A stretch of 64,000 bases of DNA from assembly GCA_964507055.1 (NCBI GenBank), contig CAZDOJ010000001.1:141210-205209 (forward strand). Direction: 5' to 3'. A program made the translations under genes and the position numbers. Within the stretch, counting starts at the first letter, position 1. Every line of letters begins with the position of its first letter. Below the pieces are notes generated by a model. That model saw only the letters and a list, made by a program, of their open reading frames with translations, was not told the origin of the DNA and searched no databases. The DNA comes from an uncultured Gammaproteobacteria bacterium (GTDB taxonomy: Bacteria > Patescibacteriota > Microgenomatia > Levybacterales > UBA12049). Positions 6,549 to 34,783 of the stretch are shown piece by piece.

Positions 6549-8276
6549 ATGGAAATTCTGTTGTTATTCGCATTTATATCTGGTTTGGTCACTATTTTTG
6601 CACCATGTATTTGGCCTCTTCTTCCAATTATTTTATCTGCTAGTTCTAGTGGGGGACATAAAAAACCCCTTGGTATAACGCTTGGTATTGTTATCAGTTT
6701 TGCAGTGATAACTTTAACAATTTCATATATCGTTAAAATAATTCCTTTTGATCCCGAAGTCCTTCGTTATATTGCCGTTATAATTATTGGCGTACTGGGT
6801 TTATCATTGGTTATTCCTGCTTTATCTCAGAAACTTGAAGGTGCTGTCAGTCGATTGAGTGGGAAGCTCGGTTTAATTTCTGATCCAAAGAAAACAGGTT
6901 TCTGGTCAGGTTTTGTTACAGGTTTTGCGTTAGGTGTTGTGTGGACTCCTTGTGCTGGACCAATCCTTGCAACGATCGCGACATTAGCAGCAACACAGGC
7001 TGTGAGTTTTAACGTCATTCTTGTGACAATAGTCTATGTCATTGGGGTAGGAATTCCACTCTTTTTATTCGCAACAGCTGGGAGTGCATTATTTACGAGA
7101 AGTCGATTTCTATCTAAATATACAGGAAGAATCCAACAAGTTTTTGGAGTGATTATGATTCTTACTGCAGTTGCAATTGCTACTGGATATGATAAGACAC
7201 TTCAAGTAAAACTCCTCAATGCCTTTCCATCGTATGGACAGTTTTTAACAGATCTAGAAAGTAATGATGCAGTTACAAAACAACTCAATTCGTTGAAAGG
7301 CTCAAGTCAATCAAATAATGCTGTCCAGGTTGTCAGTGATCAAGGAGAACCGGCACCAGAGTTTGTTGGAATTACGAAATGGCTTAACACGAATGAAAAG
7401 CCACTCACAATGAATGAATTGAGAGGCAAAGTAGTTTTGATAGATTTCTGGACATATACATGTATTAATTGTATTCGAACATTGCCATATGTGACTGGCT
7501 GGTATGAAAAATACAAAGATGATGGATTTGTTGTGGTAGGTGTGCATGCACCTGAATTCGAATTTGAGAAAGATACAGATAATGTTTTAGAAGCGATTAA
7601 GCGTTACAACATAAAGTATCCTGTTGCTCAAGACAATAATTTTGATACATGGAAAGCTTACAATAATCAATACTGGCCGGCAAAATTTCTTATCGACGCG
7701 GATGGAAAAATACGATACTCACACTTTGGAGAAGGGGAGTATGAAAAGACTGAACAAGCGATTCAACAGTTGCTGCAAGAAAATGGAAAAAAAGTTAATA
7801 CAAAAATAGAAAAAGCAGAGAGCTCTTCATATTCAAATCAGATGTCTCCCGAAACATATTTTGGTTCAGATAGGATGCTTTATTATGTGACACAAGGTAA
7901 GGTTGCAAATGGATCACAAAATTTTACATTACAAAAAACACTTCCAAACAATAGATTCTCTTTTGGTGGTCAATGGAATATTACGGATCAGTATGCAGAA
8001 GCACAATCAATTTCAGCTTTAACATATAAGTTTACAGCAAAGAAAGTATTTATCGTTTTGAAAAAAGGTACTTCGATAAATGGAACATTTCGAGTTCTTG
8101 TTGATGGAAAAGTTGTGAGCAAAGATATTGCAGGTGCTGATGTGAAGAATGGGATAGTTTCTGTGGAAGCGGACAGGCTTTATGAGCTTGTAAATCTCAA
8201 AGACATGGGGACTCATCTTTTGGAACTTCAATTTCTCCAACCAGGAATTCAGGTCTACACATTTACTTTTGGTTAA
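6549..8276 (+). CDS. DipZ-like thiol:disulfide interchange protein: CcdA/DsbD transmembrane domain fused to thioredoxin-like (TlpA/redoxin, CxxC) domain plus C-terminal domain
   Basis: N-terminal 6-8 TM with paired Cys (FAPCIWPL, WTPCAGP) typical of CcdA; WTYTCINC thioredoxin CXXC motif with AhpC/TSA-like flanks. Confidence 0.7.
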   Translation: MEILLLFAFISGLVTIFAPCIWPLLPIILSASSSGGHKKPLGITLGIVISFAVITLTISYIVKIIPFDPEVLRYIAVIIIGVLGLSLVIPALSQKLEGAVSRLSGKLGLISDPKKTGFWSGFVTGFALGVVWTPCAGPILATIATLAATQAVSFNVILVTIVYVIGVGIPLFLFATAGSALFTRSRFLSKYTGRIQQVFGVIMILTAVAIATGYDKTLQVKLLNAFPSYGQFLTDLESNDAVTKQLNSLKGSSQSNNAVQVVSDQGEPAPEFVGITKWLNTNEKPLTMNELRGKVVLIDFWTYTCINCIRTLPYVTGWYEKYKDDGFVVVGVHAPEFEFEKDTDNVLEAIKRYNIKYPVAQDNNFDTWKAYNNQYWPAKFLIDADGKIRYSHFGEGEYEKTEQAIQQLLQENGKKVNTKIEKAESSSYSNQMSPETYFGSDRMLYYVTQGKVANGSQNFTLQKTLPNNRFSFGGQWNITDQYAEAQSISALTYKFTAKKVFIVLKKGTSINGTFRVLVDGKVVSKDIAGADVKNGIVSVEADRLYELVNLKDMGTHLLELQFLQPGIQVYTFTFG

Positions 8277-10459: not shown

Positions 10460-10903
10460 ATGAGTAAAGAAGAAGAGATTGAATTACTTTTTAATACCAT
10501 GATGCAACTTGGTAAGCTCATGTCTCTACGAACAAAAGAAACCTATGAGGAGCAAGCCGCTACATCTCTACAATTCTACGCTCTCGGTTACATCCGAGAA
10601 AATCACAATGCAACCGTTACTGAAATTGCTGATTATTTGAAGCTTTCAAAATCCTCAGCAACGCAGTTGATTGAAAGGTTGGCGACAGCATCGTCTGTTG
10701 TGAGAACATCTGATGTCAATGATAAAAGGATTACTCGTCTTTCGCTTACGGACAAAGGAGTTTCAGAGCTTAAAGTAATGAAAACGAAATTTATCTCATC
10801 ATTAAAAGATGCATTTGCTGATATTCCGAAGGAGGATATACTAGAATTAATACGGATTCATAAAAGCATGATTGAATCCTTGAAGAAAAATAAGCATGAA
10901 TAA
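10460..10903 (+). CDS. MarR-family transcriptional regulator
   Basis: Winged-helix region LQFYALGYIRENHNATVTEIADYLKLSKSSATQLIERL...DKRITRLSLTDKG. Confidence 0.75.
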   Translation: MSKEEEIELLFNTMMQLGKLMSLRTKETYEEQAATSLQFYALGYIRENHNATVTEIADYLKLSKSSATQLIERLATASSVVRTSDVNDKRITRLSLTDKGVSELKVMKTKFISSLKDAFADIPKEDILELIRIHKSMIESLKKNKHE

Positions 10904-12236
10904 AGTAAAAAACATTTTTTCAAAGATAAAGAGACCCTTTGTGTGGTTTAAACATACACGTAGACGAAACAAAGTATTCACCATCATTGGCTTGCTTATT
11001 TTATTAAGTATAGTTGGTGGACAAATTGCTGCTGCAACAGCAACACCTCCATATGTTACGCAAAAAATAACCCGTGGTGATATCAAACAATTGGTTTCAG
11101 AAACCGGTAATGTTGAGACTGCTGGGCGAGTAGATGTCGACTCTACAGCAACTGGAATCATTGAGGAGATCTACGTAAAGAATGGGGATACTGTGGCAAT
11201 TGGGCAAGAGCTATTCGAGGTACGAAGTACTGCGACAGATCAAGAGAAAGCTTCTGCAAATGCCACGTATCAAAGTGCTTTAAGTAGTTTGGCTACAGCG
11301 CAACAAACAAAGGATAGTTTGGATGCAGGTATGTGGGCAAAAAGACAGGCATACCTCGATGCTCAGAATACACAGAACTACATGAATGACAACTCTAAGA
11401 ATCCTACAACGAATTCGGATTATACTGCTTTAGAACGTGAGAATGTTAAAGCTTCGGTCGTAACATCGGAAAAGGATTTTAAAGCGGCAGAAAAGAAATA
11501 TAAGGAAGCTGACATCTCGGTTCGTGCGGCACAAGCACAGGTAACATCAGCCCAATTATCTTATCAATCGACGCAGGATGTTGTCGTAAAATCACCCGCA
11601 GAAGGAACCATAACTAATTTATCTTTCAGAGTTGGTGACAAAGTTACATCAGGTGGTGGAAGTAGTTTTGGTACGAGTGCATTAGGTTCCGGAGCATCCG
11701 CTGCAAGTGTGACTTCTTCAAGCGGGGGAGGAAGTCCTGTTTTAACTATTGCCAATCTTGTTGATTATTCAATTAAGATTCCAGTCAATGAAGTCGATAT
11801 TCCAAAAATAAAAGTTGCACAGGGAGCAGAAGTTACATTAGATGCCTTTTCCAACAGAACTTTTGACGGCATAATTACACACGTTGATACAGTCGGAACA
11901 AATACTCAAGGAGTTGTTACATACAATGTCGTTATCGATATCACTGATCCGATTGATGCCATCCGTCCTGGTATGACTGCAAATGTCGATATCACCGTGG
12001 ATCATGTCGATAATGTTTTGACAGTATCTAACAGTGCGGTAAAGCCATATAAAGGTGGAAGAGCAGTTCGTATCGTTGATCCAAATAATAATAAAGAAAT
12101 AAAATATATTCCAGTTGAAATAGGTTTGAAGGGTGATGATAAAACAGAAATCGTCAAAGGTGTCTCCGAAGGTCAGGAAGTTATTACTTCACTTACAAAC
12201 GACCAAGTGCAGCGAACGAGCTCAGGTCCGTTTTAA
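10896..12236 (+). CDS. Efflux transporter periplasmic adaptor subunit (HlyD/MacA-like) with Gly/Ser-rich insert
   Basis: N-terminal TM, biotinyl/lipoyl-like hairpin motifs (GDTVAIGQELFEV, GTITNLSFRVGDKVT), coiled-coil region, beta-barrel C-term; overlaps marR stop. Confidence 0.75.
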   Translation: MNKVKNIFSKIKRPFVWFKHTRRRNKVFTIIGLLILLSIVGGQIAAATATPPYVTQKITRGDIKQLVSETGNVETAGRVDVDSTATGIIEEIYVKNGDTVAIGQELFEVRSTATDQEKASANATYQSALSSLATAQQTKDSLDAGMWAKRQAYLDAQNTQNYMNDNSKNPTTNSDYTALERENVKASVVTSEKDFKAAEKKYKEADISVRAAQAQVTSAQLSYQSTQDVVVKSPAEGTITNLSFRVGDKVTSGGGSSFGTSALGSGASAASVTSSSGGGSPVLTIANLVDYSIKIPVNEVDIPKIKVAQGAEVTLDAFSNRTFDGIITHVDTVGTNTQGVVTYNVVIDITDPIDAIRPGMTANVDITVDHVDNVLTVSNSAVKPYKGGRAVRIVDPNNNKEIKYIPVEIGLKGDDKTEIVKGVSEGQEVITSLTNDQVQRTSSGPF

Positions 12237-12238
12237 TC

Positions 12239-12931
12239 ATGGCTAAAAATCCTCTTATTCATCTTGAAAATGTTGTTAAGAACTATCCATTGGCTGATGG
12301 GGAATTTTATCAAGCATTAAAAGGAATAACCCTCACGATCAATGAAGGAGAATTTGTTGCAATTATGGGTCCATCTGGAAGTGGCAAATCTACAACGATG
12401 CATATTATTGGTGCACTTGATAATCCAACAAGCGGAAAATATGAATTAAAAGGAAAAGATATCGCCAGTTTTTCACCGGATCAATTATCAGATATTCGGA
12501 ATAAAGAAATAGGATTTGTTTTTCAATCATTTAATTTACTTCCTAGAACAACTGTTTTAAAGAATGTTGAACGCCCCATGGTATATGCTGGCATTCCCAT
12601 TGAAGAGCGGACCGCAAAAGCAATGAAGGCCTTAGAACTCGTACATATTGAAAATAAAGCAAATAATTTATCCAATCATATCTCCGGAGGACAGATTCAA
12701 CGCGTTGCAATTGCTCGAGCTATTGTCATGGATCCCTCAATTATTCTTGCCGACGAACCGACCGGAAATTTGGATACTGTGACATCAAATGAAGTTATGG
12801 AATATTTCACAAAGCTTAATGAGTCAGGGAAAACAATTATTGTCATTACTCATGAAGAAGATATAGCGAAGTATGTAAAACGAGTTATTAGAATTGTTGA
12901 CGGAAAGATTCTGTCTGATACAAAGAAATAA
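12239..12931 (+). CDS. ABC transporter ATP-binding protein (MacB/LolD-type)
   Basis: Walker A GPSGSGKST, signature LSGGQIQRVAIARA, Walker B ILADEPTGNLD. Confidence 0.85.
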   Translation: MAKNPLIHLENVVKNYPLADGEFYQALKGITLTINEGEFVAIMGPSGSGKSTTMHIIGALDNPTSGKYELKGKDIASFSPDQLSDIRNKEIGFVFQSFNLLPRTTVLKNVERPMVYAGIPIEERTAKAMKALELVHIENKANNLSNHISGGQIQRVAIARAIVMDPSIILADEPTGNLDTVTSNEVMEYFTKLNESGKTIIVITHEEDIAKYVKRVIRIVDGKILSDTKK

Positions 12932-12932
12932 T

Positions 12933-14144
12933 ATGGATTACAAAGAATTGCTACAAACATCATTACAATCCTTACGGCGAAATGTTTTGCGAACTTCGTT
13001 AACAATGCTGGGAATTATTATCGGCATTACATCAGTAATCCTCATTGTCTCAATTGGTCGTGGAGCTGTCGCGTTTATCACAAATGAACTTTCAAGTTTT
13101 GGTACTGACTATTTCCAGATTAATCCTGGTCAAAGTAATTTTGATTCATTCGCGGGTGCAAATACGCTGACATTGGATGATGTCCGAGCAATTAAAAATG
13201 ATAAATCGTTTACGAATATTAATAAGGTAGTTCCGATTGCTTCGGCAGCAACAGTCGTATCTGCAAATGGCGAAGAAGATAATATAAATGTTACAGGAAC
13301 TGGATCAGAAATTATTGAGATTCTTCGTCCAGAAATTATTTATGGAGAATTTCTTACGGAAGAAAATGACTTAACTGCAGAACGAGTTGCAGTATTGGGG
13401 TCAGATGCTGCAGAGACGTTCTTTGGCGAGGAAACTAATCCAGTCGGTGAGAGAATAAGAATTAATAATACGCCTTTTCGTGTTATTGGTGTCGCCAAAT
13501 CGGAAAGTGCTTTGGCGGGAAGTGTCCTTAATAAATCAATTTATGTTCCGATCAATGTGGTTTTTAATGAAATTCAAGGAGAAGAAAAGATTCAAGAAAT
13601 TGATGTCAGTGTTCATGACGAAAATCAAATTAATCAAACAATGGAGGACGTAGAGTTATTGCTGCGAGATCGTCATAATATTGCCGAAGGAGAAGAAAAT
13701 GATTTTCAAATAACAAGTGCTCAAGATATTCTAACAACGGTACAAACGATTACTGGTTTGCTTACGACGATGATTGCAGCTATTTCTGGTATTTCATTGG
13801 TTGTTGGTGGAGTAGGGGTTATGAATATTATGTTGGTATCTGTGACAGAGCGTACAAGAGAAATCGGTTTGCTAAAAGCTATTGGAGCAAAAGAAAGAGA
13901 TATTTTGACGCAATTTCTTATTGAAGCAGTTGTTATGACAGTAATGGGAGGAGTCATTGGTATTGTATTAGGAGTTGCAGGAGCCTATCTTATTGCAAAG
14001 GCTGTAAATATTCCTTTTGTTGTTGATTATGTGGGGATTCTTGTTGCGGTTGGAGTTTCGACTGCAGTGGGATTGATCTTTGGATACTATCCAGCAAAAC
14101 GTGCTGCTAAACTTTCCCCAATTGATGCATTGCGTCACGAATAA
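12933..14144 (+). CDS. ABC transporter permease (MacB-type, FtsX domain)
   Basis: ATG 2 nt after ATPase stop; MacB_PCD-like periplasmic domain between TM1 and TM2, C-terminal FtsX 3-TM bundle. Confidence 0.8.
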   Translation: MDYKELLQTSLQSLRRNVLRTSLTMLGIIIGITSVILIVSIGRGAVAFITNELSSFGTDYFQINPGQSNFDSFAGANTLTLDDVRAIKNDKSFTNINKVVPIASAATVVSANGEEDNINVTGTGSEIIEILRPEIIYGEFLTEENDLTAERVAVLGSDAAETFFGEETNPVGERIRINNTPFRVIGVAKSESALAGSVLNKSIYVPINVVFNEIQGEEKIQEIDVSVHDENQINQTMEDVELLLRDRHNIAEGEENDFQITSAQDILTTVQTITGLLTTMIAAISGISLVVGGVGVMNIMLVSVTERTREIGLLKAIGAKERDILTQFLIEAVVMTVMGGVIGIVLGVAGAYLIAKAVNIPFVVDYVGILVAVGVSTAVGLIFGYYPAKRAAKLSPIDALRHE

Positions 14145-19216: not shown

Positions 19217-20320
19217 ATGAATTTAAGTGTCGGTATCGTCGGTCTTCCAAACGTAGGTAAATCCACTTTGTTTAATGCTCTTCTCAAGAAGCAAGCGGCT
19301 TTGGCGGCTAATTATCCTTTTGCTACCATTGAGCCAAATGTCGGAGTTGTACCAGTCCCAGATCAGAGATTGATTAAACTTGGTGAAATAACCCGCGAAG
19401 AAGAGAAGATGTCTGAGCTTCCTCCATTAAAACCAGCATTGATCGAATTCGTCGATATTGCAGGACTTGTGAAAGGTGCTTCTGAAGGTGCTGGACTTGG
19501 TAACAAATTCCTTTCCCACATCCGTGAAGTAAAGATCATTTCTCATGTCGTCCGAGCTTTTGAGGATCCTGATGTTATTAAAGAGGGAGCTGTGGATCCG
19601 CAGGCTGATTATGAAGTAATTCAAGCAGAACTTATCATCGCCGATCTCCAAACAGTTGAAAAGCAGAAAGACTCGAAGGCGGTAAAAACTGATGTCAAGA
19701 AAAAGTCAGCGGTTGAGAAACTTATTAAGGGATTGAACGAAGGGAAAGCTGCACGAGATATCAATTTAACCGATGATGAGCAAGCATTTGCTCAGGAACT
19801 TTTTTTACTTTCCAACAAACCTGAAATTATCGTCCTCAATGTCTCAGAAGAGCAATATTCGCCAGAAGGAATTACTGAAGTCACCAAGAAGTTTGCAGAA
19901 CTTTTAAATCAACCAGAAGACAAATTAGTCGTGATCTGTGCCAAGATCGAGTCCGAGCTTGCGACACTTTCTGATGAAGAATCAAAAGAGTATTTAGCAG
20001 ATTTAGGATTGGAAGCGTCAGGGTTGGAAAGACTTATCCAAAAGGCATACAACAAATTAGGTTTGATTTCATTCCTCACAGCAGGGGAGAAGGAAGTCAA
20101 AGCATGGACTATTAAGAAAGAAACAGACGCCCCAAATGCAGCTGGTGCTATTCATACAGACTTTACGAAAAAGTTTATTAAGGCTGAGGTAATTAGTTTT
20201 GATGATTATGTCACAACAGGTGGACGCAAAAAGGTTAGGGAAGTGGGTAAAGCCCGTCTCGAAGGCCGTGACTATATCGTCCAAGATGGTGATATTATCG
20301 AATTCAAGATCGGTGCATAG
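19217..20320 (+). CDS. ychF: Ribosome-binding ATPase YchF (Obg-family GTPase)
   Basis: G1 [27 protein letters not shown]-terminal domain. Confidence 0.9.
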
Positions 20321-20373: not shown

Positions 20374-21987
20374 ATGGCAGTAGAACGAATAGACTCACGA
20401 AGTGCACGAAGTCATAGAGCAAATAAGCTTAGAGAAGTGGCAGTCTCTCGACGAGAAAGGGAAGGTTCTGATACAACACCTTTGCCAACTGAACAAACGG
20501 ACCTCCCTGAAACAACGAATGCTGATGTATGGAAATCTCGTGCGAAAAAGGTTGCAGTGGTAGGTGGTATAACCGTAGCAGCATTGGCTCTTGGGAAATA
20601 TGCTTTTACTGATAAAGAAACTGGCAAACTCGATGCAGGGAAGATTGCCAAATCCTTGGGGAAAGCAGTGGCAGTTGGAGCAGGAGAAGGAGTTTCCGGA
20701 GTTGCAGGAATTACGGTCCGACATCATCGAGAATTGACGCATCGGAGTTTGGAATTATCAAAGGGTATACAAAAAGCAATTGATTTCGAGCAACGATCAC
20801 TTGGAGTTGCAGAACCATATACTTGGGCTTCAGTTCATAGAATTCATCATCAGATGGAAGACGCATCCCTTTTTCCTTTTTATCAATTACATCATGCGAT
20901 GCAAGAGGCTGAGAGTCGTGGGATAGAAGTTCCCGAGACATTTGCACAGCTTGATCCTTTCGTAAAACAATTTGATAGGAAAACAGTTGATTCGATTGGA
21001 AAATCTGTAGATGAACTTATTCAGGAACGTCTTGCAGATCCTCGATTAGGGGAGAAGCAATATAAAAAACCTACGTTTGAAGACGTAACTGATGATGAGC
21101 TTACTGCCATGCTTCATCCTACTGAACCACAGTATGCCTATATCCCTCTTGAAGAGCATGTGCGAAAAACGACTGAGGAAGCGTATTCTCAAGATGATAT
21201 CGCCAGATTATTGCTTACAGATCCTCATTCTCCCGCATTAGAACCTCGAAAAAATGGTGTCCAGGGAATTTTGATAGAAGGTATGCCACGATATCAAAAT
21301 CCGGCTGATATGTTCAGAGCGATTCCTCTTGTAAAACCCATCGATTTGCAACAGCCAGAGGATGAACTTTCACCAGAAGAAAGACGAATTAATAAAAAGA
21401 AGTATGTTGCAGCTGGCTTTGCTTTGAACGCTGGAGCATTTTTCCTTGCGAATAGAGATTTTTCTTTCAAAGGTGCTGCGAGAGCAATCCTCGAGGGAGC
21501 AGCTGCAAATGGTGCAAGAGCCGGTTTGGAAGTTTCCGGCGGAAACGTAACAAACTCGGCAGGGCATATGGGAGATCCTGTGCAAACAGAAATTGGAAGG
21601 GCATTTCTTAATAGGGAATACGAAATTAAATTAAAGGAAGATGGAACGATATCTACCAATACAGTAGGTAAAGGTATCTCCGGAAGAATGGCAAGCTGGG
21701 CAACGCTTGATGAAGTCGGGGGACAAGAAATTCATCATAAAAAACCATGGAAAATTAAATATACCAACGAAGAAGGAATACAAGCTGTTATCGAGGCTCC
21801 TTGGGGAAGTGCACTTGAATTCTTAGCAAAGTCGGAATGGTTTACAAAAATTAAAGAAGGAGCTGGTTTTGGTGAGACATCTCGTCCTGATGTTGCCCAT
21901 CCTGCAGTTAAAATGCTCCAAGCAGAGCGTGCCAAGCAATATGTCTTAGATCATATCGATGACGAAACCGTGGTATTTAACGGATAA
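20374..21987 (+). CDS. Divergent membrane fatty-acid desaturase-like protein (three His boxes at SCD-like spacing, atypical hydrophilic body)
   Basis: HRELTHRS (res 118-126) vs SCD HRLWSHRSY; WASVHRIHHQ (155-160) vs WARDHRAHHK, 37-aa spacing identical to stearoyl-CoA desaturase; distal QEIHHKKP resembles QxxHH third box; only 2-3 hydrophobic segments. Confidence 0.5.
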   Translation: MAVERIDSRSARSHRANKLREVAVSRREREGSDTTPLPTEQTDLPETTNADVWKSRAKKVAVVGGITVAALALGKYAFTDKETGKLDAGKIAKSLGKAVAVGAGEGVSGVAGITVRHHRELTHRSLELSKGIQKAIDFEQRSLGVAEPYTWASVHRIHHQMEDASLFPFYQLHHAMQEAESRGIEVPETFAQLDPFVKQFDRKTVDSIGKSVDELIQERLADPRLGEKQYKKPTFEDVTDDELTAMLHPTEPQYAYIPLEEHVRKTTEEAYSQDDIARLLLTDPHSPALEPRKNGVQGILIEGMPRYQNPADMFRAIPLVKPIDLQQPEDELSPEERRINKKKYVAAGFALNAGAFFLANRDFSFKGAARAILEGAAANGARAGLEVSGGNVTNSAGHMGDPVQTEIGRAFLNREYEIKLKEDGTISTNTVGKGISGRMASWATLDEVGGQEIHHKKPWKIKYTNEEGIQAVIEAPWGSALEFLAKSEWFTKIKEGAGFGETSRPDVAHPAVKMLQAERAKQYVLDHIDDETVVFNG

Positions 21988-22048: not shown

Positions 22049-22363
22049 ATGAGAACTTACGAATTGGCATTGGTTTTACGTCCATCACTCAAAGAAGCAG
22101 ATCGAAAGAAACTTCTTGAAACCATCAAAGATTGGTTGGGTAAAGTAAAAATTGCAAAAGAAAACGATTGGGGTCAAAAAGCTTTGGCATATCCAATCAA
22201 AAAAGAAGACGCAGGATATTACTTGATGTTAGAACTTGAAGTCGAAGATCCAAAGGTTTTGGCTAAAGAAAAGAATATCAAAAGTGGATTGCCAGAAGAT
22301 TTTGAACAAAGAGTATTACGAACAGATAGTGTTTTAAGGCATTTGTTATTAAGAACTAAATAA
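22049..22363 (+). CDS. rpsF: 30S ribosomal protein S6
   Basis: MRTYELALVLRPSL... canonical bS6. Confidence 0.85.
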   Translation: MRTYELALVLRPSLKEADRKKLLETIKDWLGKVKIAKENDWGQKALAYPIKKEDAGYYLMLELEVEDPKVLAKEKNIKSGLPEDFEQRVLRTDSVLRHLLLRTK

Positions 22364-22851
22364 TGGCCAGAAGTTTAAATAGAGTACAATTAATAGGAAA
22401 TCTCACACGTGATCCGGAGTTGCGATATACCCCGGCTGGAAATGCGGTTTGTACTTTTGGTTTGGCTACCAATAGATCTTGGACAACAGATGCAGGTGAG
22501 AAAAGAGAAGAAGTAGACTTTCACAGGATTGTGGCTTGGAACAAATTGGCTGAATTATGTAGTCAATTCTTAGTTAAGGGTCGCAAAGTCTATGTCGAAG
22601 GAAGACTTTCTACTCGTAACTGGACAGCTCAGGATGGAGCTCAGAAATCTACAACAGAAGTTGTAATTGATGATATGATCCTTCTTGATAACAAAGGCGG
22701 TTCAGGAGCAGGAGAAAATCAACCAGAAGAACAGTTCAATCCTGAAGAAGAAGCAAAGCCAGCGGCAAAAAAGCCAGAAGCTAAGCATGAAGAAGCTCCT
22801 TCATCAAACAGTAAAGAAGATGAAGTCGCACCGGATGATATACCTTTTTAA
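22363..22851 (+). CDS. ssb: Single-stranded DNA-binding protein
   Basis: OB-fold LIGNLTRDPELRYTPAGNAVCTFGLATNR, acidic C-terminal tail ending DDIPF. Confidence 0.85.
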   Translation: MARSLNRVQLIGNLTRDPELRYTPAGNAVCTFGLATNRSWTTDAGEKREEVDFHRIVAWNKLAELCSQFLVKGRKVYVEGRLSTRNWTAQDGAQKSTTEVVIDDMILLDNKGGSGAGENQPEEQFNPEEEAKPAAKKPEAKHEEAPSSNSKEDEVAPDDIPF

Positions 22852-22867
22852 GGTTTAATATAAAAAT

Positions 22868-23110
22868 ATGGCAGAAAAGAAAAGATTACCAAAGAAGAAG
22901 ATAGTTGTACCAAAGACATGTTATTTCTGTACAGAAAAGAAGACACCTTGGTATTCAGATACAGCAAGTTTGCAAAAATTTGTAACTGATCGCGGCAAAA
23001 TCATTGTCCGAACTCGATCAGGACTTTGTGCGAAGCATCAACGCAGAGTAACTACAGCTATCAAGAATGCACGACATTTAGCATTGATGGCGTTTGTTAA
23101 CCGCACATAA
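22868..23110 (+). CDS. rpsR: 30S ribosomal protein S18
   Basis: CYFCTEKKTPWYSD...RGKIIVRTRSGLCAKHQR. Confidence 0.85.
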   Translation: MAEKKRLPKKKIVVPKTCYFCTEKKTPWYSDTASLQKFVTDRGKIIVRTRSGLCAKHQRRVTTAIKNARHLALMAFVNRT

Positions 23111-23171: not shown

Positions 23172-23939
23172 ATGATATCTTTGCCCATACCTCTCCCGAA
23201 GGGATATGTATGTATTGTTGATACAGGTGACCGTATCACTGCTGGGCAAATTCTTGCTCAAACCTCTGGACCCAATGAGGAATTCGTGAATGTTCCTGAA
23301 CACCTCGGCGTTTCGCTCTCAAAAGCTCCCAAATATATTAAGAAAAATCCAGGAGATGCTATCGAAGAAGGGGATACTATTGCAATCCGTAAAGATTTTT
23401 TTGGGAAAACAAAGGCTGCAATCATAAGTGAAGTTGCTGGTACTGTTATTAGATACGAAAGAAATACTGGTAATTTGGTCGTAACGACAGGCGAAACCGA
23501 GAATAAAGGTGATGTTATTTCCCCGGTTGATGGCATGGTTGAATTGTGTAATAATAAAGAAATTGTGATCCATACTGGTAACGCAGTTATCGGTACACGA
23601 GTAGTTGCAGGATCAAGAGGAGAGGGCGAATTAACGATTATGAAAGCATCGTTTAATGAAACTTCGCCCCAAAATGTATTATTCTTTCTCGATAAACAAG
23701 TTGCAGGAAAGATAGTCCTAGGAGATACATTTACACGAGACGTAATTATAAAAGGATCAACAATTGGTGCCGCAGGGTTTATCGCAAAAAGTATCCCTGA
23801 CAGTGATATTGATTATCTTCAAGATAAAAATATTTCCATTCCGGTAATAGAAGTCGATGAAGAATCAATCGCAAAATTAAAAAAGCTCGATGGGGAAAAA
23901 GTCGTTATTGATCCCCAAGCAAAAATCATTTTATTTTAA
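23172..23939 (+). CDS. Hypothetical protein with repetitive Gly/Val/Ile beta-strand motifs (possible beta-helix/bactofilin-like fold)
   Basis: Occupies the position normally taken by rplI after rpsR; repeated GDxI..G motifs; no confident family. Confidence 0.4.
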   Translation: MISLPIPLPKGYVCIVDTGDRITAGQILAQTSGPNEEFVNVPEHLGVSLSKAPKYIKKNPGDAIEEGDTIAIRKDFFGKTKAAIISEVAGTVIRYERNTGNLVVTTGETENKGDVISPVDGMVELCNNKEIVIHTGNAVIGTRVVAGSRGEGELTIMKASFNETSPQNVLFFLDKQVAGKIVLGDTFTRDVIIKGSTIGAAGFIAKSIPDSDIDYLQDKNISIPVIEVDEESIAKLKKLDGEKVVIDPQAKIILF

Positions 23940-23940
23940 T

Positions 23941-25224
23941 ATGTTGAAATCAGAAAAGCTTCGAATTGTTTTACTCGTTCTTATCGCAGGTTTTATCGGA
24001 TATTACCTCGGTGTTAGTAAAGTGGCATTTGCATGGGATAACTTCAAACCCCACATAGAAATTTCTAGCAAAGAACCTCCACCAAGTCTTCAGACTGGGG
24101 ACGCAAGTATGCTTTGGCAGGTATTAGCAAAGATTGAAGCAACATATTATGACAAGGAAGCGATTACTGCTGACAAAATCATGAATGGTGCGATTCAGGG
24201 AATGGTGAGTAGCTTAGATGATCCGTATACCGTATATCTTCCTCCACAACAAAATGATGATTTCAAGCAAAGCATGGCTGGAAAATTTGAAGGTATTGGT
24301 GCCGAGCTAGGATTAAAAGACAAAAATATCATTGTTGTCTCTCCAATTGATGGCAGTCCAGCTAAAAAAGCTGGTATTAAAGCTGGAGATTTGATCGTCA
24401 AAGTAAATGGACAATATATAAGCGGACTGACATTAAATCAAGTTGTTGAAAAGATTCGTGGTCCAAAGGGAACAGAAGTAATTCTTAATATTCAGCAAAA
24501 GGCAGGAGAAGAACCAAAAGATATAAAGATTGTTCGTGATGAAATTACAGTGAAGAGTCTTACCACTTGGACAAAGAAAGTGAAAGATATTGAAGGTATC
24601 AAGAAAGATGCACAAGGTATTGCAGGTGGGGCAGAGAATAAAGTTATTTACGTTCGATTATCTCAATTTGGTGATAGTACCAATGAAGAATGGACAAATG
24701 TAGCAAGTTCGATTCGAAAGCAGCTTGATGCAGATAAAACAATTAAAGGAATCGTCTTTGATTTGCGAAACAATCCAGGCGGATATCTCAATGATGCCGT
24801 CTATATTGAATCAGAATTTGTTCCATCAGGTACAGCTGTACAACAGGAAGATAAGAATAAAAAGAGGACACCGTATCCAGTTTCAGGTAAAGGTGTCCTT
24901 ACCGATGTTCCTGTCGTTGTCCTTATTAACAAAGGATCAGCTTCTGCGAGTGAAATTGTAGCAGGTGGTCTTAAAGATAACGGCCGAGCGACATTAGTGG
25001 GAGACAAATCATTTGGTAAAGGGACAATTCAACAGGCTGAAGACCTTGGCGGTGGTGCAGGTTTGCACGTCACAATTGCGAAATGGCTTACACCAAATGG
25101 TACGTGGGTTGGGAATGGAAAAGATGGTCAAGGTTTAACACCTGATGTTCTCGTCCAAGTTGATAAAGAAGATCCAGCACATGATATCCAACTTGAAAAA
25201 GCAGTTGCAGAATTGCTAAAATAA
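23941..25224 (+). CDS. S41-family C-terminal processing peptidase (CtpA-like) with PDZ domain
   Basis: ATG 2 nt after previous stop; N-terminal TM; PDZ (SPIDGSPAKKAGIKAGDLIVKVNG); GIVFDLRNNPGGYL; catalytic SASASE...K region. Confidence 0.8.
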   Translation: MLKSEKLRIVLLVLIAGFIGYYLGVSKVAFAWDNFKPHIEISSKEPPPSLQTGDASMLWQVLAKIEATYYDKEAITADKIMNGAIQGMVSSLDDPYTVYLPPQQNDDFKQSMAGKFEGIGAELGLKDKNIIVVSPIDGSPAKKAGIKAGDLIVKVNGQYISGLTLNQVVEKIRGPKGTEVILNIQQKAGEEPKDIKIVRDEITVKSLTTWTKKVKDIEGIKKDAQGIAGGAENKVIYVRLSQFGDSTNEEWTNVASSIRKQLDADKTIKGIVFDLRNNPGGYLNDAVYIESEFVPSGTAVQQEDKNKKRTPYPVSGKGVLTDVPVVVLINKGSASASEIVAGGLKDNGRATLVGDKSFGKGTIQQAEDLGGGAGLHVTIAKWLTPNGTWVGNGKDGQGLTPDVLVQVDKEDPAHDIQLEKAVAELLK

Positions 25225-33478: not shown

Positions 33479-34783
33479 TTATTGCTTGTTCATTTTTGAA
33501 CCAGCGGCAACTATCCCTATAGCAGGTGCAGCTGCTACTGCAGTTGATGCAGCGGCGGCAACAGCAACCGTTGTAAGAAATGCTTTACCAAGTGCCTTTA
33601 GAAACCTTTTCATGAATCCAAGTTTCTTGGCCTCAGCAGTGTTACCGTCTTTTTCTGCCTTTGCTATCTGTTCATCTAAGCTTTCAGCTGTGGCATTTGC
33701 AGCAGCAGCGGCACCTTCAGGACCTCCAATTTCTTTATTTGCGGCTCCAGCTTTTACTCCTGCTTTAACTGCTTCTGCCTGATCAGGATTCTCAGCAATT
33801 AAATCTAGTACCGCTTGGCCTTCAGGACTATTGATATCCACTCCCAACTTTACAAGTTCTTGTACTTCTTGCATTACTTGTTTTCTTTCTTCAACAGCTT
33901 TTTGCTCTGGAGTAAGTTCTGTGTCCTTATTTGTATCGGCAACTTCATTTGCGATTTGTTCAGCTTCTGCTTTTACTGTTGCAGGTGTCGCTTCAGGTGG
34001 GGGAACAGCTTCACTTGTAGCTTCGACTTTAGCACCTTGGGCTCTTTCTGCTGCGGAAGGTTCTTTATATTGTGCTTGTCCTTCCCAGTCCTGCCAGTCT
34101 TTTTTGACTTGTTCTGCTGTTGGTTGCTCATTTGATGGGGGAGTTGGTACGGTTTGCTCTGCTCCTTGAGGTGCTGCTGGTTGACCGGCTTCGGCCTGTT
34201 GCTTAAGCATATCTTCTGCCCCTTGAGATACTTGCTTTTCCATATCACTTAATGCTTTCTTTGCTAGGTCATTTCCTTCAGCAGCAAGTTTTTGAAGATC
34301 TTCAGGTTTTAGATCCATCATCTCATTTAATCGTGCCTGTTGAGCATCAAGGCTATGTTGATCCTGGTCTACTCCAGTAGCTTGTGCTGCTGCTGGTTGT
34401 TCTGTATTTGGGACAGGTGGGTTTGGGTTTTCTACGGATAGTTTAGGATCTTCCGCAGGTGCAATTGGTGATTGTGCTTCTCCGGTAGCAGGTTGTTGTC
34501 CATCTACCGGTGCATCTCCCAATTTGCCTGCTTGCATATCTGCAAACTCTTGTTCTAATGCACCTGGTGTTAGGCTGTCACCGCGATTTGCCAAATCTTC
34601 AAAAGTTTTGGCTTCTGGATTCGAAGTTCCTTGTTCAGTAGCAGCCTTTACTTGATCTTCAATTTTTGCTGCACTATCCTGTCCTGCATTTGGTTTCTCT
34701 GGTCCTGCTGTTTGTGGCACCTCTGCAGGCTTTGGTGCTTCGGGGGCTTTGACTTCTACTGGTGGAGCTGTTGTCTCAGGCAT
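33479..34783 (-). CDS. Acidic Pro/Ala/Glu/Gln-rich intrinsically disordered protein with C-terminal TM anchor
   Basis: 434 aa, low complexity throughout, single C-terminal hydrophobic helix AFLTTVAVAAAASTAVAAAPAIGIVAAG; higher local GC; start overlaps upstream stop (ATGCCTGA). Confidence 0.5.
   Translation of the reverse strand: MPETTAPPVEVKAPEAPKPAEVPQTAGPEKPNAGQDSAAKIEDQVKAATEQGTSNPEAKTFEDLANRGDSLTPGALEQEFADMQAGKLGDAPVDGQQPATGEAQSPIAPAEDPKLSVENPNPPVPNTEQPAAAQATGVDQDQHSLDAQQARLNEMMDLKPEDLQKLAAEGNDLAKKALSDMEKQVSQGAEDMLKQQAEAGQPAAPQGAEQTVPTPPSNEQPTAEQVKKDWQDWEGQAQYKEPSAAERAQGAKVEATSEAVPPPEATPATVKAEAEQIANEVADTNKDTELTPEQKAVEERKQVMQEVQELVKLGVDINSPEGQAVLDLIAENPDQAEAVKAGVKAGAANKEIGGPEGAAAAANATAESLDEQIAKAEKDGNTAEAKKLGFMKRFLKALGKAFLTTVAVAAAASTAVAAAPAIGIVAAGSKMNKQ

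What the first reader, a model, noticed from the sequence alone, without database searches (positions are those of the whole stretch)
20374..21987. Highly divergent desaturase-like protein: three SCD-type His boxes at conserved spacing but otherwise hydrophilic
Residues 118-126 HRELTHRSL and 152-160 WASVHRIHHQ match the first two histidine boxes of stearoyl-CoA desaturases (HRLWSHRSY, WARDHRAHHK). The 37-residue spacing is the same as in mammalian SCD1 (H120 to H157). A QEIHHKKP near residue 452 resembles the QxxHH third box of front-end desaturases. Canonical desaturases have four TM helices and about 135 residues between boxes 2 and 3. This protein has only two or three weak hydrophobic segments, one of them Gly/Ala-rich, and about 290 mostly hydrophilic residues between boxes 2 and 3, plus a charged Arg/Glu-rich N-terminus. 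Local GC is visibly higher than in flanking membrane-protein genes. It may be a novel di-iron oxidase or hydroxylase variant, or a decaying desaturase.
Basis: partly seen in the sequence, partly recalled or inferred. Interest (0 to 1): 0.55.

Follow-up and report, generated by a model that had tools for sequence, protein, structure and literature searches.

The report
Divergent CPR-bacterial SCD-type desaturase homologue
This gene encodes a very divergent relative of stearoyl-CoA-type fatty-acid desaturases, found only in tiny-genome Patescibacteria, that keeps every iron-binding position but carries a new ~115-residue inserted domain and a weakened membrane anchor; its substrate is unknown.

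Summary
It is a true homologue of delta-9 ("first") membrane desaturases such as SCD1, not a chance resemblance. Profile-profile alignment matches both halves: TM2 to box 2 at E=1.7e-18, and DPHSP to box 3 at E=1.8e-8 (reversed controls E=0.2-0.4). All ten SCD1 metal-site positions align. H118, H123, H155, H158, H159, N394, H398, H454 and H455 are conserved in 86-87 of 87 family members. SCD1 H298 is always Gln (Q451).

The roughly 155 extra residues between boxes 2 and 3 are mainly one discrete, conserved insert of about 115 aa (164-282). It lies between box 2 and the DPHSP motif and resembles nothing known. The TM-equivalent helices sit at homologous positions but are Ala/Gly-rich and charged. 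The query's subclade adds an N-terminal TM-like helix.

Full-length members occur only in Patescibacteria (about 18 of 185,579 species genomes), are unannotated, and have no partner gene. "Decaying desaturase" is refuted. The raised GC reflects amino-acid composition (GC3 is average).

Most likely it is an active di-iron, O2-dependent lipid-modifying enzyme. Chemistry and substrate are inferred, not shown. Structural support is modest. I class it as a new variant of a known kind.

The parts
20374..21987 (+). Complete ORF, 537 aa plus stop: a divergent SCD-type desaturase homologue.
   Evidence: ORF. (identical protein P0001 on 8 contigs, longest 1.32 Mb). (AF2 mean pLDDT 87.4, pTM 0.83).
20374..20658 (+). 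N-terminal extension (residues 1-95), present only in the 'long-form' subclade. It comprises an Arg/Glu-rich helix (2-30), a low-confidence linker (32-65) and a TM1-like hydrophobic helix (60-78, nt 20551-20607).
   Evidence: absent from most homologues. (pLDDT below 50 for 32-65). (KD 1.77; 10 long forms).
20659..20862 (+). TM2-equivalent Ala/Gly-rich helix plus His box 1 (H118-x4-H123, nt 20725-20742) and His box 2 (H155-x2-H158-H159, nt 20836-20850), ending at invariant D163.
   Evidence: hhalign against bacterial canonical desaturases: prob 99.1%, E=1.7e-18. Against animal SCD: E=1.9e-8. hmmsearch against PDB hits 4zyo at E=2.6e-4. Ligand positions 86-87 of 87.
20863..21219 (+). Family-specific insert (residues 164-282), a predicted alpha/beta subdomain with no counterpart in canonical desaturases. 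It contains the >=95% conserved residues D194 and Y256.
   Evidence: P0119 and SCD1 have only 7-8 residues here. Insert length has median 115, range 71-135. No match to canonical profiles (E>=0.31). No match in Pfam or PDB. pLDDT above 90. Conservation 0.47, equal to the core.
21220..21234 (+). DPHSP motif (283-287), equivalent to SCD1 D169-P-H-N-S, which immediately follows box 2 in canonical enzymes.
   Evidence: Invariant in A1. D283 87/87 and H285 84/87. Aligned to hSCD1 169-173.
21403..21549 (+). TM3/TM4-equivalent helical hairpin (344-392), Ala/Gly-rich and charged, weakly hydrophobic in this protein.
   Evidence: Model helices 334-360 and 365-396. Aligned to hSCD1 around 222-262. Best KD 0.95 in the query, 1.52 family mean, 2.22 in canonical bacterial enzymes.
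21553..21567 (+). N394-S-A-G-H398, equivalent to SCD1 N265-S-A-A-H269 (second-shell Asn and an Fe2 His ligand).
   Evidence: 87/87 conserved. Aligned in three independent hhalign runs. hSCD1 active-site list in PMC8533217. Mouse H265 is an Fe2 ligand, PMC10359943.
21568..21708 (+). Extended loop (399-445) between the NxxxH motif and box 3, about 24 residues longer than in SCD1, with conserved G400 and G424.
   Evidence: (gapped against hSCD1 270-291).
21724..21747 (+). His box 3 variant Q451-E-I-H454-H455-K-K-P458, equivalent to SCD1 H298-N-Y-H301-H302-S-F-P305. The first His is replaced by Gln in every family member.
   Evidence: Q451, H454 and H455 87/87; P458 85/87. Alignment.
21748..21984 (+). 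C-terminal region (459-537). The first part aligns with SCD1 306-334. The tail has family-specific invariant R504 and D506 (the RPD motif).

Best explanation
The gene encodes a functional member of a previously undescribed, Patescibacteria-restricted subfamily of the delta-9 'first desaturase' (SCD/DesC-type) histidine-box di-iron enzymes.

Shown: it is homologous to SCD-type desaturases across both halves of the catalytic core. All ten SCD1 metal-site positions are retained and essentially invariant: eight His, the second-shell Asn, and Gln in place of the ninth His. A discrete ~115-residue domain, as conserved as the core, is inserted between box 2 and the DPH motif. The helices equivalent to TM2-TM4 are markedly less hydrophobic than in canonical enzymes.

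Inferred: the protein binds two irons in the cytoplasmic cap. With O2 and electrons from a separately encoded small redox protein (ferredoxin- or flavodoxin-like, not adjacent), it oxidises a lipid acyl chain. The most likely reaction is introduction of a double bond into acyl chains of scavenged or membrane lipids, which would give organisms thought to lack de novo fatty-acid synthesis a post-synthetic way to tune membrane fluidity. The insert probably builds a new head-group or redox-partner docking surface. The degenerate stem suggests shallow or peripheral membrane association. In the query's long-form subclade the added N-terminal TM-like helix would act as the anchor.
For: Homology:
- NCBIfam DesA-family hit, E=1.5e-4.
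- Family profile against PDB hits only SCD1: 4zyo E=2.6e-4, 4ymk E=2e-3.
- 14 of 40 members touch PF00487, and P0091 exceeds its gathering score.
- hhalign N-terminal block: E=1.7e-18 against the nearest bacterial desaturases.
- hhalign C-terminal block: E=1.8e-8, prob 95.4%, 159 columns, with reversed controls at E=0.2-0.4.
- The bridging bacterial profile is itself SCD-like, E=4.9e-48.

Active site: H118, H123, H155, H158, H159, N394, H398, Q451, H454 and H455 are conserved in 86-87 of 87 members down to about 26% identity. They align one-to-one with hSCD1 H120, H125, H157, H160, H161, N265, H269, H298, H301 and H302 (residue list in PMC8533217).

Fold: AF2 pLDDT 87.4, with four long helices where SCD1 has TM1-4. 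SCD1 entries are the only PDB hits with Foldseek prob 0.75-0.92 and TMt 0.43-0.47.

Selection: at least 84 clusters at 50% identity. The insert is as conserved as the core.

QxxHH is compatible with desaturase activity in front-end desaturases (PMC3826146).
Against: - No activity, metal content or substrate data exist for any member.
- The query itself fails Pfam and scores 21 bits against the 400-bit cut-off of the NCBIfam equivalog.
- No redox partner or lipid gene is adjacent in any of 19 loci. The window has no ferredoxin, rubredoxin or cytochrome b5 motif.
- Many Patescibacteria are regarded as anaerobic fermenters (background knowledge), which sits badly with an O2-dependent enzyme.
- The weak hydrophobicity raises the question of how a lipid substrate would be reached.
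Confidence: 0.6

Rival explanations
1. Same fold and di-iron site, but different chemistry or substrate. It would be a hydroxylase, epoxidase or other oxygenase, or a desaturase acting on something other than a glycerolipid or acyl-thioester chain, such as a more polar or host-derived molecule bound by the new insert domain. The enzyme would act largely at or off the membrane surface.
For: - The superfamily includes hydroxylases, ketolases and alkane monooxygenases that share the His boxes (PMC5037126).
- The conserved 115-aa insert has no counterpart in any desaturase.
- The Fe2 site is altered by the H-to-Q substitution.
- The TM-equivalent helices are much more polar: 12-14 charged residues per 60 aa against 6.2 in canonical bacterial enzymes.
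Against: - The closest relatives by a wide margin are delta-9-type desaturases.
- The auxiliary delta-9 signature motifs (HRxxxHRS, DPH, NSxxH, HHxxP) are all retained.
- QxxHH enzymes that have been characterised are desaturases.
Confidence: 0.27
2. A non-catalytic derivative: a metal- or lipid-binding protein (sensor, structural or regulatory) that keeps the histidine cluster for metal binding but no longer turns over O2.
For: - No redox partner lies nearby.
- The family is rare and its hosts have minimal redox metabolism (background knowledge).
- The conserved H-to-Q change falls in the Fe2 site, and Fe2 is already the labile iron in SCD1 (PMC10359943).
Against: - Every one of ten metal-site positions, including the second-shell Asn, is invariant over 87 sequences. 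That is the pattern of an intact catalytic site.
- Pseudo-enzymes normally lose some ligands.
- Gln at this position is compatible with catalysis in front-end desaturases.
Confidence: 0.1
3. A decaying desaturase gene or a chance resemblance of histidine motifs.
For: The query gets no Pfam hit. Its sequence is unusually hydrophilic and long.
Against: - The ORF is intact, with 40 to over 84 homologues at 26-72% identity and invariant motifs.
- The AF2 model is confident.
- Profile E-values are 1e-8 to 1e-18, with null controls at about 0.3.
- GC3 is typical of the genome.
- An identical protein was recovered on 8 contigs from several samples.
Confidence: 0.01

Closest known systems
[quoted passage not shown]
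   Same: - Box 1 HRxxxHRS and box 2 WxxxHRxHH, with an identical 37-residue spacing.
- DPH motif, NSxxH motif and xxxHHxxP box 3.
- Collinear alignment of query 107-166 and 283-491 with hSCD1 109-168 and 169-334.
- Four long helices at the TM1-4 positions.
- The only PDB fold with appreciable Foldseek probability.
   Different: - About 18-25% identity in the aligned blocks.
- SCD1 H298 (the first His of box 3) is Gln.
- An insert of about 115 aa lies between box 2 and DPH, and about 24 extra residues lie before box 3.
- The TM helices are far less hydrophobic.
- TM1 is absent from most family members.
- The family-specific C-terminal RPD motif has no SCD1 counterpart.
- Whether CoA-binding residues are conserved was not assessable.
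Short bacterial delta-9-type desaturases of Acidimicrobiales, Planctomycetota and Phycisphaerae (e.g. P0119, P0121; JGI name 'stearoyl-CoA desaturase (delta-9 desaturase)'; loci L026-L079)
   Same: They are the nearest canonical relatives. They share HR(D/C)L(T/A)HRS, WA(A/G)VHR(I/L)HH and DPH(A/S)P. The N-terminal block is 33% identical, E=1.7e-18. The C-terminal block gives E=6.3e-7.
   Different: - They are compact (about 240-350 aa), with DPH 7-8 residues after box 2 and no insert.
- Box 3 is the canonical HN(S/N)HH.
- Their TM segments are clearly hydrophobic (KD about 2.1-2.2).
- They pass Pfam PF00487.
Front-end desaturases (delta-4, -5, -6, -8; Fads-type)
   Same: The third box has Gln in place of the first His (QxxHH) (PMC3826146).
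   Different: - Front-end enzymes carry a fused cytochrome b5 domain with HPGG. This protein has no HPGG, and none was found in the window ORF scan.
- Their box 1 and box 2 consensus differs.
- Profile searches point to delta-9-type enzymes instead.
- The shared Gln is best read as convergent.
Pseudomonas-type DesA acyl-lipid desaturase family (NCBIfam NF049918)
   Same: It is the only curated family model hit by the query itself: residues 110-206 against profile 22-118, E=1.5e-4.
   Different: The score is 21 bits against a 400-bit equivalog cut-off, and only the box 1 to box 2 region aligns. The protein is not a member.

Membership tests
Membrane histidine-box di-iron desaturase/hydroxylase superfamily (Pfam PF00487 FA_desaturase clan) | Three histidine boxes, HX3-4H, HX2-3HH and (H/Q)X2-3HH, in that order. 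| tested here: met
   H118-x4-H123, H155-x2-HH159 and Q451-x2-HH455, conserved in 86-87 of 87 members.
Membrane histidine-box di-iron desaturase/hydroxylase superfamily (Pfam PF00487 FA_desaturase clan) | Statistically significant sequence similarity to the family model. | tested here: met
   The query alone gets no Pfam hit. At family level, 14 of 40 members hit PF00487 and P0091 scores 32.3 bits against the 29.7 cut-off. Profile-profile E=1.7e-18 (N-terminal half) and 1.8e-8 (C-terminal half), with null controls around 0.3.
Membrane histidine-box di-iron desaturase/hydroxylase superfamily (Pfam PF00487 FA_desaturase clan) | Integral-membrane topology (four TM helices in the SCD type). | tested here: inconclusive
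   Long helices sit at homologous positions, but hydrophobicity is low. The query has KD 1.15, 0.95 and 0.51 for the TM2, TM3 and TM4 equivalents and 14 charged residues per 60 aa. Most members lack TM1. No dedicated topology predictor was available.
Membrane histidine-box di-iron desaturase/hydroxylase superfamily (Pfam PF00487 FA_desaturase clan) | SCD1-like three-dimensional fold with the ligands converging on a two-metal site. | tested here: inconclusive
Membrane histidine-box di-iron desaturase/hydroxylase superfamily (Pfam PF00487 FA_desaturase clan) | Binds two Fe and catalyses O2-dependent oxidation. | not testable with these tools
   Requires biochemistry.
Delta-9 'first desaturase' family (SCD1 / DesC type) | The signature motif set: HRxxxHRS, WxxxHRxHH, DPH, NSxxH and HHxxP. 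| tested here: met
   All are present and aligned in register with hSCD1.
Delta-9 'first desaturase' family (SCD1 / DesC type) | Nine-histidine coordination (five His on Fe1, four on Fe2). | tested here: not met
   Eight of the nine His are conserved. The position of hSCD1 H298 is Gln in 87 of 87 members. The nine-His description is from PMC10359943.
Delta-9 'first desaturase' family (SCD1 / DesC type) | Compact cap: the DPH motif 7-8 residues after box 2, and about 137 residues from box 2 to box 3. | tested here: not met
   There are 123 residues between H159 and D283 and 292 from H159 to Q451. The family's median insert is 115 aa.
Delta-9 'first desaturase' family (SCD1 / DesC type) | Delta-9 regioselective desaturation of a saturated acyl chain. 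| not testable with these tools
   No functional data exist for any member. No paper on the family was found.
DesA family fatty acid desaturase (NCBIfam NF049918 equivalog) | Score at or above the curated 400-bit cut-off over the full-length model. | tested here: not met
   21.1 bits, covering profile positions 22-118 of 385 only.
Front-end desaturases | QxxHH third box. | tested here: met
   Q451-E-I-H-H. Motif definition from PMC3826146.
Front-end desaturases | Fused cytochrome b5 domain with an HPGG haem-binding motif. | tested here: not met
   The protein has no HPGG (sequence) and the regex scan of window ORFs found none. No Cyt-b5 Pfam hit.

The most novel reading that the evidence does not exclude
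The SCD-type integral-membrane desaturase fold has been remodelled in Patescibacteria into a largely hydrophilic, peripherally or monotopically attached enzyme. It would have a new substrate- or partner-binding domain and a His8-Gln-Asn di-iron site. It would be the only route by which these fatty-acid-synthesis-deficient episymbionts can desaturate or otherwise oxidise lipids taken from their hosts. That would make it both a new structural class of histidine-box enzyme and a new element of CPR-host lipid biology.
Probability: 0.25. Interest if true: 0.72.

Novelty: new variant of a known kind. Interest (0 to 1): 0.5.

Why it matters
Histidine-box membrane desaturases are hard to study because they are integral-membrane proteins. 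A natural lineage with a polar stem, an extra domain and an invariant His-to-Gln change at the metal site (Fe2 by my recollection) could be a more tractable model for this unusual carboxylate-free di-iron centre. It could also show how head-group or partner recognition evolves.

Biologically, Patescibacteria are thought to depend on host lipids. An O2-dependent lipid-modifying enzyme confined to a few Microgenomatia and Saccharimonadia lineages would be a rare example of autonomous membrane remodelling in these organisms, and a marker of aerobic niches.

Practically, the family is invisible to Pfam and NCBIfam thresholds and is annotated everywhere as hypothetical, so a dedicated family model would improve CPR genome annotation.

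Tried and rejected
1. Pfam on the query found nothing. phmmer against PDB with the single sequence gave only a spurious plastocyanin hit, E=1.2.
2. hhalign of the whole family against a single hSCD1 sequence stopped at the insert. The C-terminal half against a single hSCD1 was not significant, E=0.23. Larger profiles were needed.
3. A homology search seeded with the bridging desaturase P0119 returned only 3 proteins and was poor value. The last search, seeded with alignment A2, returned mostly animal SCDs. The useful canonical bacterial set came instead from ORFs I extracted from the loci. Start codons were chosen mechanically and sequences were trimmed to 45 aa before box 1.
4. An AF2 model of the C-terminal fragment (283-537) was confident (pLDDT 87.4), but Foldseek against PDB gave no SCD1 match, best E=3.6. 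The fragment test therefore gave no structural support.
6. Neighbour clustering over 19 loci found only ychF and rpsF-ssb-rpsR synteny in 5 loci and no functional partner. Regex scans for ferredoxin, rubredoxin and cytochrome b5 motifs in the window found nothing.
7. Horizontal transfer suggested by the raised GC was rejected, because GC3 equals the window mean.
8. Kinship with front-end desaturases suggested by QxxHH was rejected, because there is no cytochrome b5 domain and the box 1 and box 2 signature is delta-9-type.
9. Literature searches for desaturases in Patescibacteria or Saccharibacteria found only the unrelated carotenoid CrtD.
10. Promoter and terminator scans were at or below chance expectation.
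Full report
**Observation**

The window contains an intact ORF at 20374-21987 on the + strand (537 aa). It lies between ychF (19217-20320) and rpsF-ssb-rpsR (22049-23110).
- HRELTHRSL at residues 118-126.
- QEIHHKKP from Q451.

The H118-to-H155 spacing is 37 residues, as in human SCD1 (H120 to H157). H159 to Q451 is 292 residues, against 137 in SCD1.

The protein is hydrophilic, with GRAVY -0.51 against -0.19 for SCD1. Only two 19-residue windows have KD >= 1.0: 60-78, and the Gly/Ala-rich 97-115.

Its GC (0.429) is the second highest among the large ORFs of the window (mean 0.375, sd 0.026). GC3 (0.271) equals the window mean (0.272), so the excess reflects a Gly/Ala/Arg/Glu-rich composition and not foreign DNA.

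**Is it a desaturase homologue?**

The single sequence gets nothing from Pfam. It gets only a 21-bit hit (E=1.5e-4) to the NCBIfam DesA-family model, over residues 110-206.

Homologues exist, all unannotated:
- 40 proteins in the 90%-clustered collection.
- 84 representatives at 50% identity among 1.84 billion proteins.

A profile of the first 40 hits only SCD1 in the PDB: 4zyo at E=2.6e-4 and 4ymk at E=2e-3, over box 1 to box 2. Fourteen of the 40 touch PF00487, and member P0091 passes its gathering score.

Local aligners stop at a large insert, so I split the alignment.
- **N-terminal block (TM2 equivalent to box 2).** Against animal SCDs: prob 95%, E=1.9e-8. Against 42 canonical short desaturases that I extracted from Acidimicrobiales and Planctomycetota loci: prob 99.1%, E=1.7e-18.
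- **The bridging set.** It is itself unambiguously SCD-like, E=4.9e-48.
- **C-terminal half.** It was marginal with 40 sequences (E=1.1e-3 and 3.2e-4, same register). With an 87-member family profile against the merged canonical profile it became clear: prob 95.4%, E=1.8e-8, 159 columns, query 283-491 against hSCD1 169-334. Reversed-profile controls gave E=0.2-0.4.

It was validated three ways:
- A verbatim match to the 4zyo chain segment.
- 94% identity at full coverage to primate SCDs.
- Numbering consistent with the published active-site list (PMC8533217).

**Anatomy**

The alignments place every SCD1 metal-site residue on a conserved residue of this protein:

| This protein | hSCD1 |
|---|---|
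| H118, H123 | H120, H125 |
| H155, H158, H159 | H157, H160, H161 |
| N394, H398 | N265, H269 |
| Q451, H454, H455 | H298, H301, H302 |
| P458 | P305 |
| DPHSP (283-287) | DPHNS (169-173) |

In an 87-member alignment of full-length relatives, down to about 26% identity, these ten positions are present in 86-87 of 87 sequences. The single exception lacks its N-terminus. Position 451 is always Gln.

SCD1's di-iron centre is ligated by nine His, five on Fe1 and four on Fe2, and Fe2 is labile (PMC10359943). My recollection is that H298 is an Fe2 ligand, which would make this family's site His3-Gln at Fe2. I did not verify that assignment from a paper. QxxHH is the normal third box of front-end desaturases (PMC3826146). 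This protein has no cytochrome b5 domain or HPGG motif, and its other motifs are delta-9-type, so I read the Gln as convergent.

The roughly 155 extra residues between boxes 2 and 3 break down into three parts:
1. **A discrete insert, residues 164-282.** Canonical enzymes have 7-8 residues between box 2 and DPH. P0119 reads VHRIHHRFADGARDPHAP and SCD1 reads HRAHHKFSETHADPHN.
   - Its length in the family has median 115, range 71-135.
   - It is predicted with pLDDT above 90 as helices plus a beta-hairpin.
   - It is as conserved as the catalytic core: mean top-residue frequency 0.47 against 0.45-0.53, with D194 and Y256 at >=95%.
   - It matches nothing in canonical desaturase profiles, Pfam or the PDB.
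2. **About 24 extra residues** between H398 and box 3.
3. **About 14 extra residues** between DPH and the NSxxH motif.

A C-terminal tail carries invariant R504 and D506.

**Membrane stem**

The AF2 model has four long helices (50-77, 88-122, 334-360, 365-396) where SCD1 has TM1-4. Helices 2 and 4 run into box 1 and NSxxH, as in SCD1 (the SCD1 comparison is from my knowledge of 4ZYO and 4YMK).

The motif-anchored hydropathy comparison is:

| Measure | This family | Canonical bacterial | Animal SCD | Query |
|---|---|---|---|---|
| TM2 equivalent, best KD | 1.59 | 2.11 | 1.78 | 1.15 |
| TM3/4 equivalents, best KD | 1.52 | 2.22 | 1.78 | 0.95 (second 0.51) |
| Charged residues per 60 aa before NSxxH | 12.0 | 6.2 | 8.5 | 14 |
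| Ala+Gly in that stretch | 31% | 21% | not tabulated (Ala 6.1%) | - |

Most members (about 440 aa) lack TM1 altogether. Ten long forms, including the query, have an N-terminal extension that in nine of them contains a TM1-like hydrophobic helix. Their TM3/4 equivalents are less hydrophobic than those of short forms (1.21 against 1.58, Mann-Whitney p=0.0013, not corrected for phylogeny).

I infer a shallow or peripheral membrane association. In the query's clade the new N-terminal helix would serve as the anchor. This was not tested with a topology predictor.

**Structure comparison**

The full-length model is confident (pLDDT 87.4, pTM 0.83). In Foldseek against the PDB, the SCD1 entries are the only ones with appreciable probability (4zyo 0.92, 4ymk 0.85, 6wf2 0.75) and TM-scores of 0.43-0.47 normalised to SCD1. 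The E-values are 0.38-0.8 and the rmsd is large.

**Distribution and context**

In 185,579 species-representative genomes, full-length matches occur in about 18 MAGs. They are labelled as follows:
- Levyibacteriota, Microgenomates, 'Patescibacteria group' and Saccharibacteria.
- 'Uncultured Gammaproteobacteria' or 'Methylomirabilota', which share the CPR-type synteny and are probably mislabelled.

The other 54 matches cover only box 1 to box 2 and are canonical desaturases of Acidimicrobiales, Planctomycetota and Phycisphaerae. These are the nearest ordinary relatives.

The window's identical protein lies on contigs up to 1.32 Mb.

Across 19 loci the only recurrent neighbours are ychF and rpsF-ssb-rpsR, in 5 loci. 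No ferredoxin, flavodoxin, cytochrome b5 or lipid-metabolism gene is linked. No paper describing the family was found.

**Interpretation**

Shown:
- Homology to delta-9-type histidine-box desaturases over the whole catalytic core.
- An intact, invariant metal-site set with one systematic His-to-Gln change.
- A conserved novel insert.
- A polar, Ala/Gly-rich stem.
- Restriction to Patescibacteria.

Inferred: it is an active O2-dependent di-iron enzyme working on lipid acyl chains, most simply a desaturase that lets organisms without de novo fatty-acid synthesis adjust the unsaturation of acquired lipids. Electrons would come from an unlinked small redox protein. The insert would provide a new head-group or partner surface.

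Confidence:
- About 0.95 that it is a true homologue of the SCD-type fold.
- About 0.6 that it is an active lipid-acyl oxidoreductase of this kind.
- About 0.4 that it is specifically a fatty-acyl desaturase.

Rivals:
- Same site but other chemistry or substrate (0.27).
- Non-catalytic metal or lipid binder (0.1).
- Decaying gene or chance resemblance (0.01 or less). This is refuted by conservation across at least 84 clusters, the confident model and typical GC3.

**Novelty and score**

It is a member of the histidine-box superfamily. It fails two defining features of the canonical delta-9 family (nine-His ligation and a compact cap), and its membrane topology is uncertain. I classify it as a new variant of a known kind.

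It is moderately interesting (0.5). It is not a new principle. It is an unannotated, lineage-restricted remodelling of a well-known and hard-to-study enzyme fold, in organisms whose lipid biology is an open question.

Noticed in passing
window 33479-34783 (-): A 434-aa Pro/Ala/Glu/Gln-rich, acidic, low-complexity protein with a single C-terminal hydrophobic tail (...FLTTVAVAAAASTAVAAAPAIGIVAAG), so it looks tail-anchored. It has no Pfam hit. It has the highest GC (0.459) but the lowest GC3 (0.223) of the large ORFs in the window.
   Followed up: partly
window 23172-23939 (+); L006 13211-13332: A 255-aa ORF lies directly downstream of rpsR. It has only sub-threshold barrel-sandwich (Biotin_lipoyl / RnfC_N) hits. 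A 254-aa ORF occupies the same position in a Levyibacteriota locus. The window ORF overlaps the following S41 (CtpB-like) peptidase ORF (23890-25224) by 50 nt.
   Followed up: partly
window 6549-8276 (+): A fusion of a DsbD/CcdA-type transmembrane domain with Redoxin/AhpC-TSA and Thioredoxin_10 domains, i.e. an envelope thiol-disulfide oxidoreductase. This may be relevant to life under oxidising conditions.
   Followed up: no
L008 (OZ246394.1), L010, L012-L014, L009: Several species-representative MAGs carry full-length family members. L008 and L010 also have the same ychF and rpsF-ssb-rpsR synteny as the window. These records are titled 'uncultured Gammaproteobacteria bacterium' or 'Methylomirabilota'. 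Their taxonomy labels are probably wrong and they are more likely Patescibacteria.
   Followed up: partly
L006 8792-12148 (same contig as L011): In the Levyibacteriota relative, a 1118-aa protein with an Rce1-like (CPBP) protease domain is inserted between ychF and rpsF. There the desaturase-like gene lies upstream of ychF rather than downstream.
   Followed up: no
proteins P0098 (512 aa) and P0106 (378 aa): These very divergent relatives have DPYSP instead of DPHSP and unusual N-terminal halves. P0098 has a box 2 interrupted by an acidic stretch. P0106 has no recognisable box 1. They may be sub-lineages with an altered or lost Fe1 site.
   Followed up: partly
window 20395-20742 (-) and 21294-21659 (-): Two antisense ORFs of 115 and 121 aa lie inside the desaturase-like gene. 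They are Cys/Ser/Phe-rich mechanical ORFs, and no homologue evidence was sought. They are most likely non-coding shadows of the + strand gene.
   Followed up: no
window 10896-14144 (+): A tripartite-efflux-like set: a HlyD-family membrane-fusion protein (10896-12236), a 230-aa ORF (12239-12931) that was not scanned, and a MacB/FtsX permease (12894-14144). This is unusual-looking for a presumed monoderm CPR cell.
   Followed up: no
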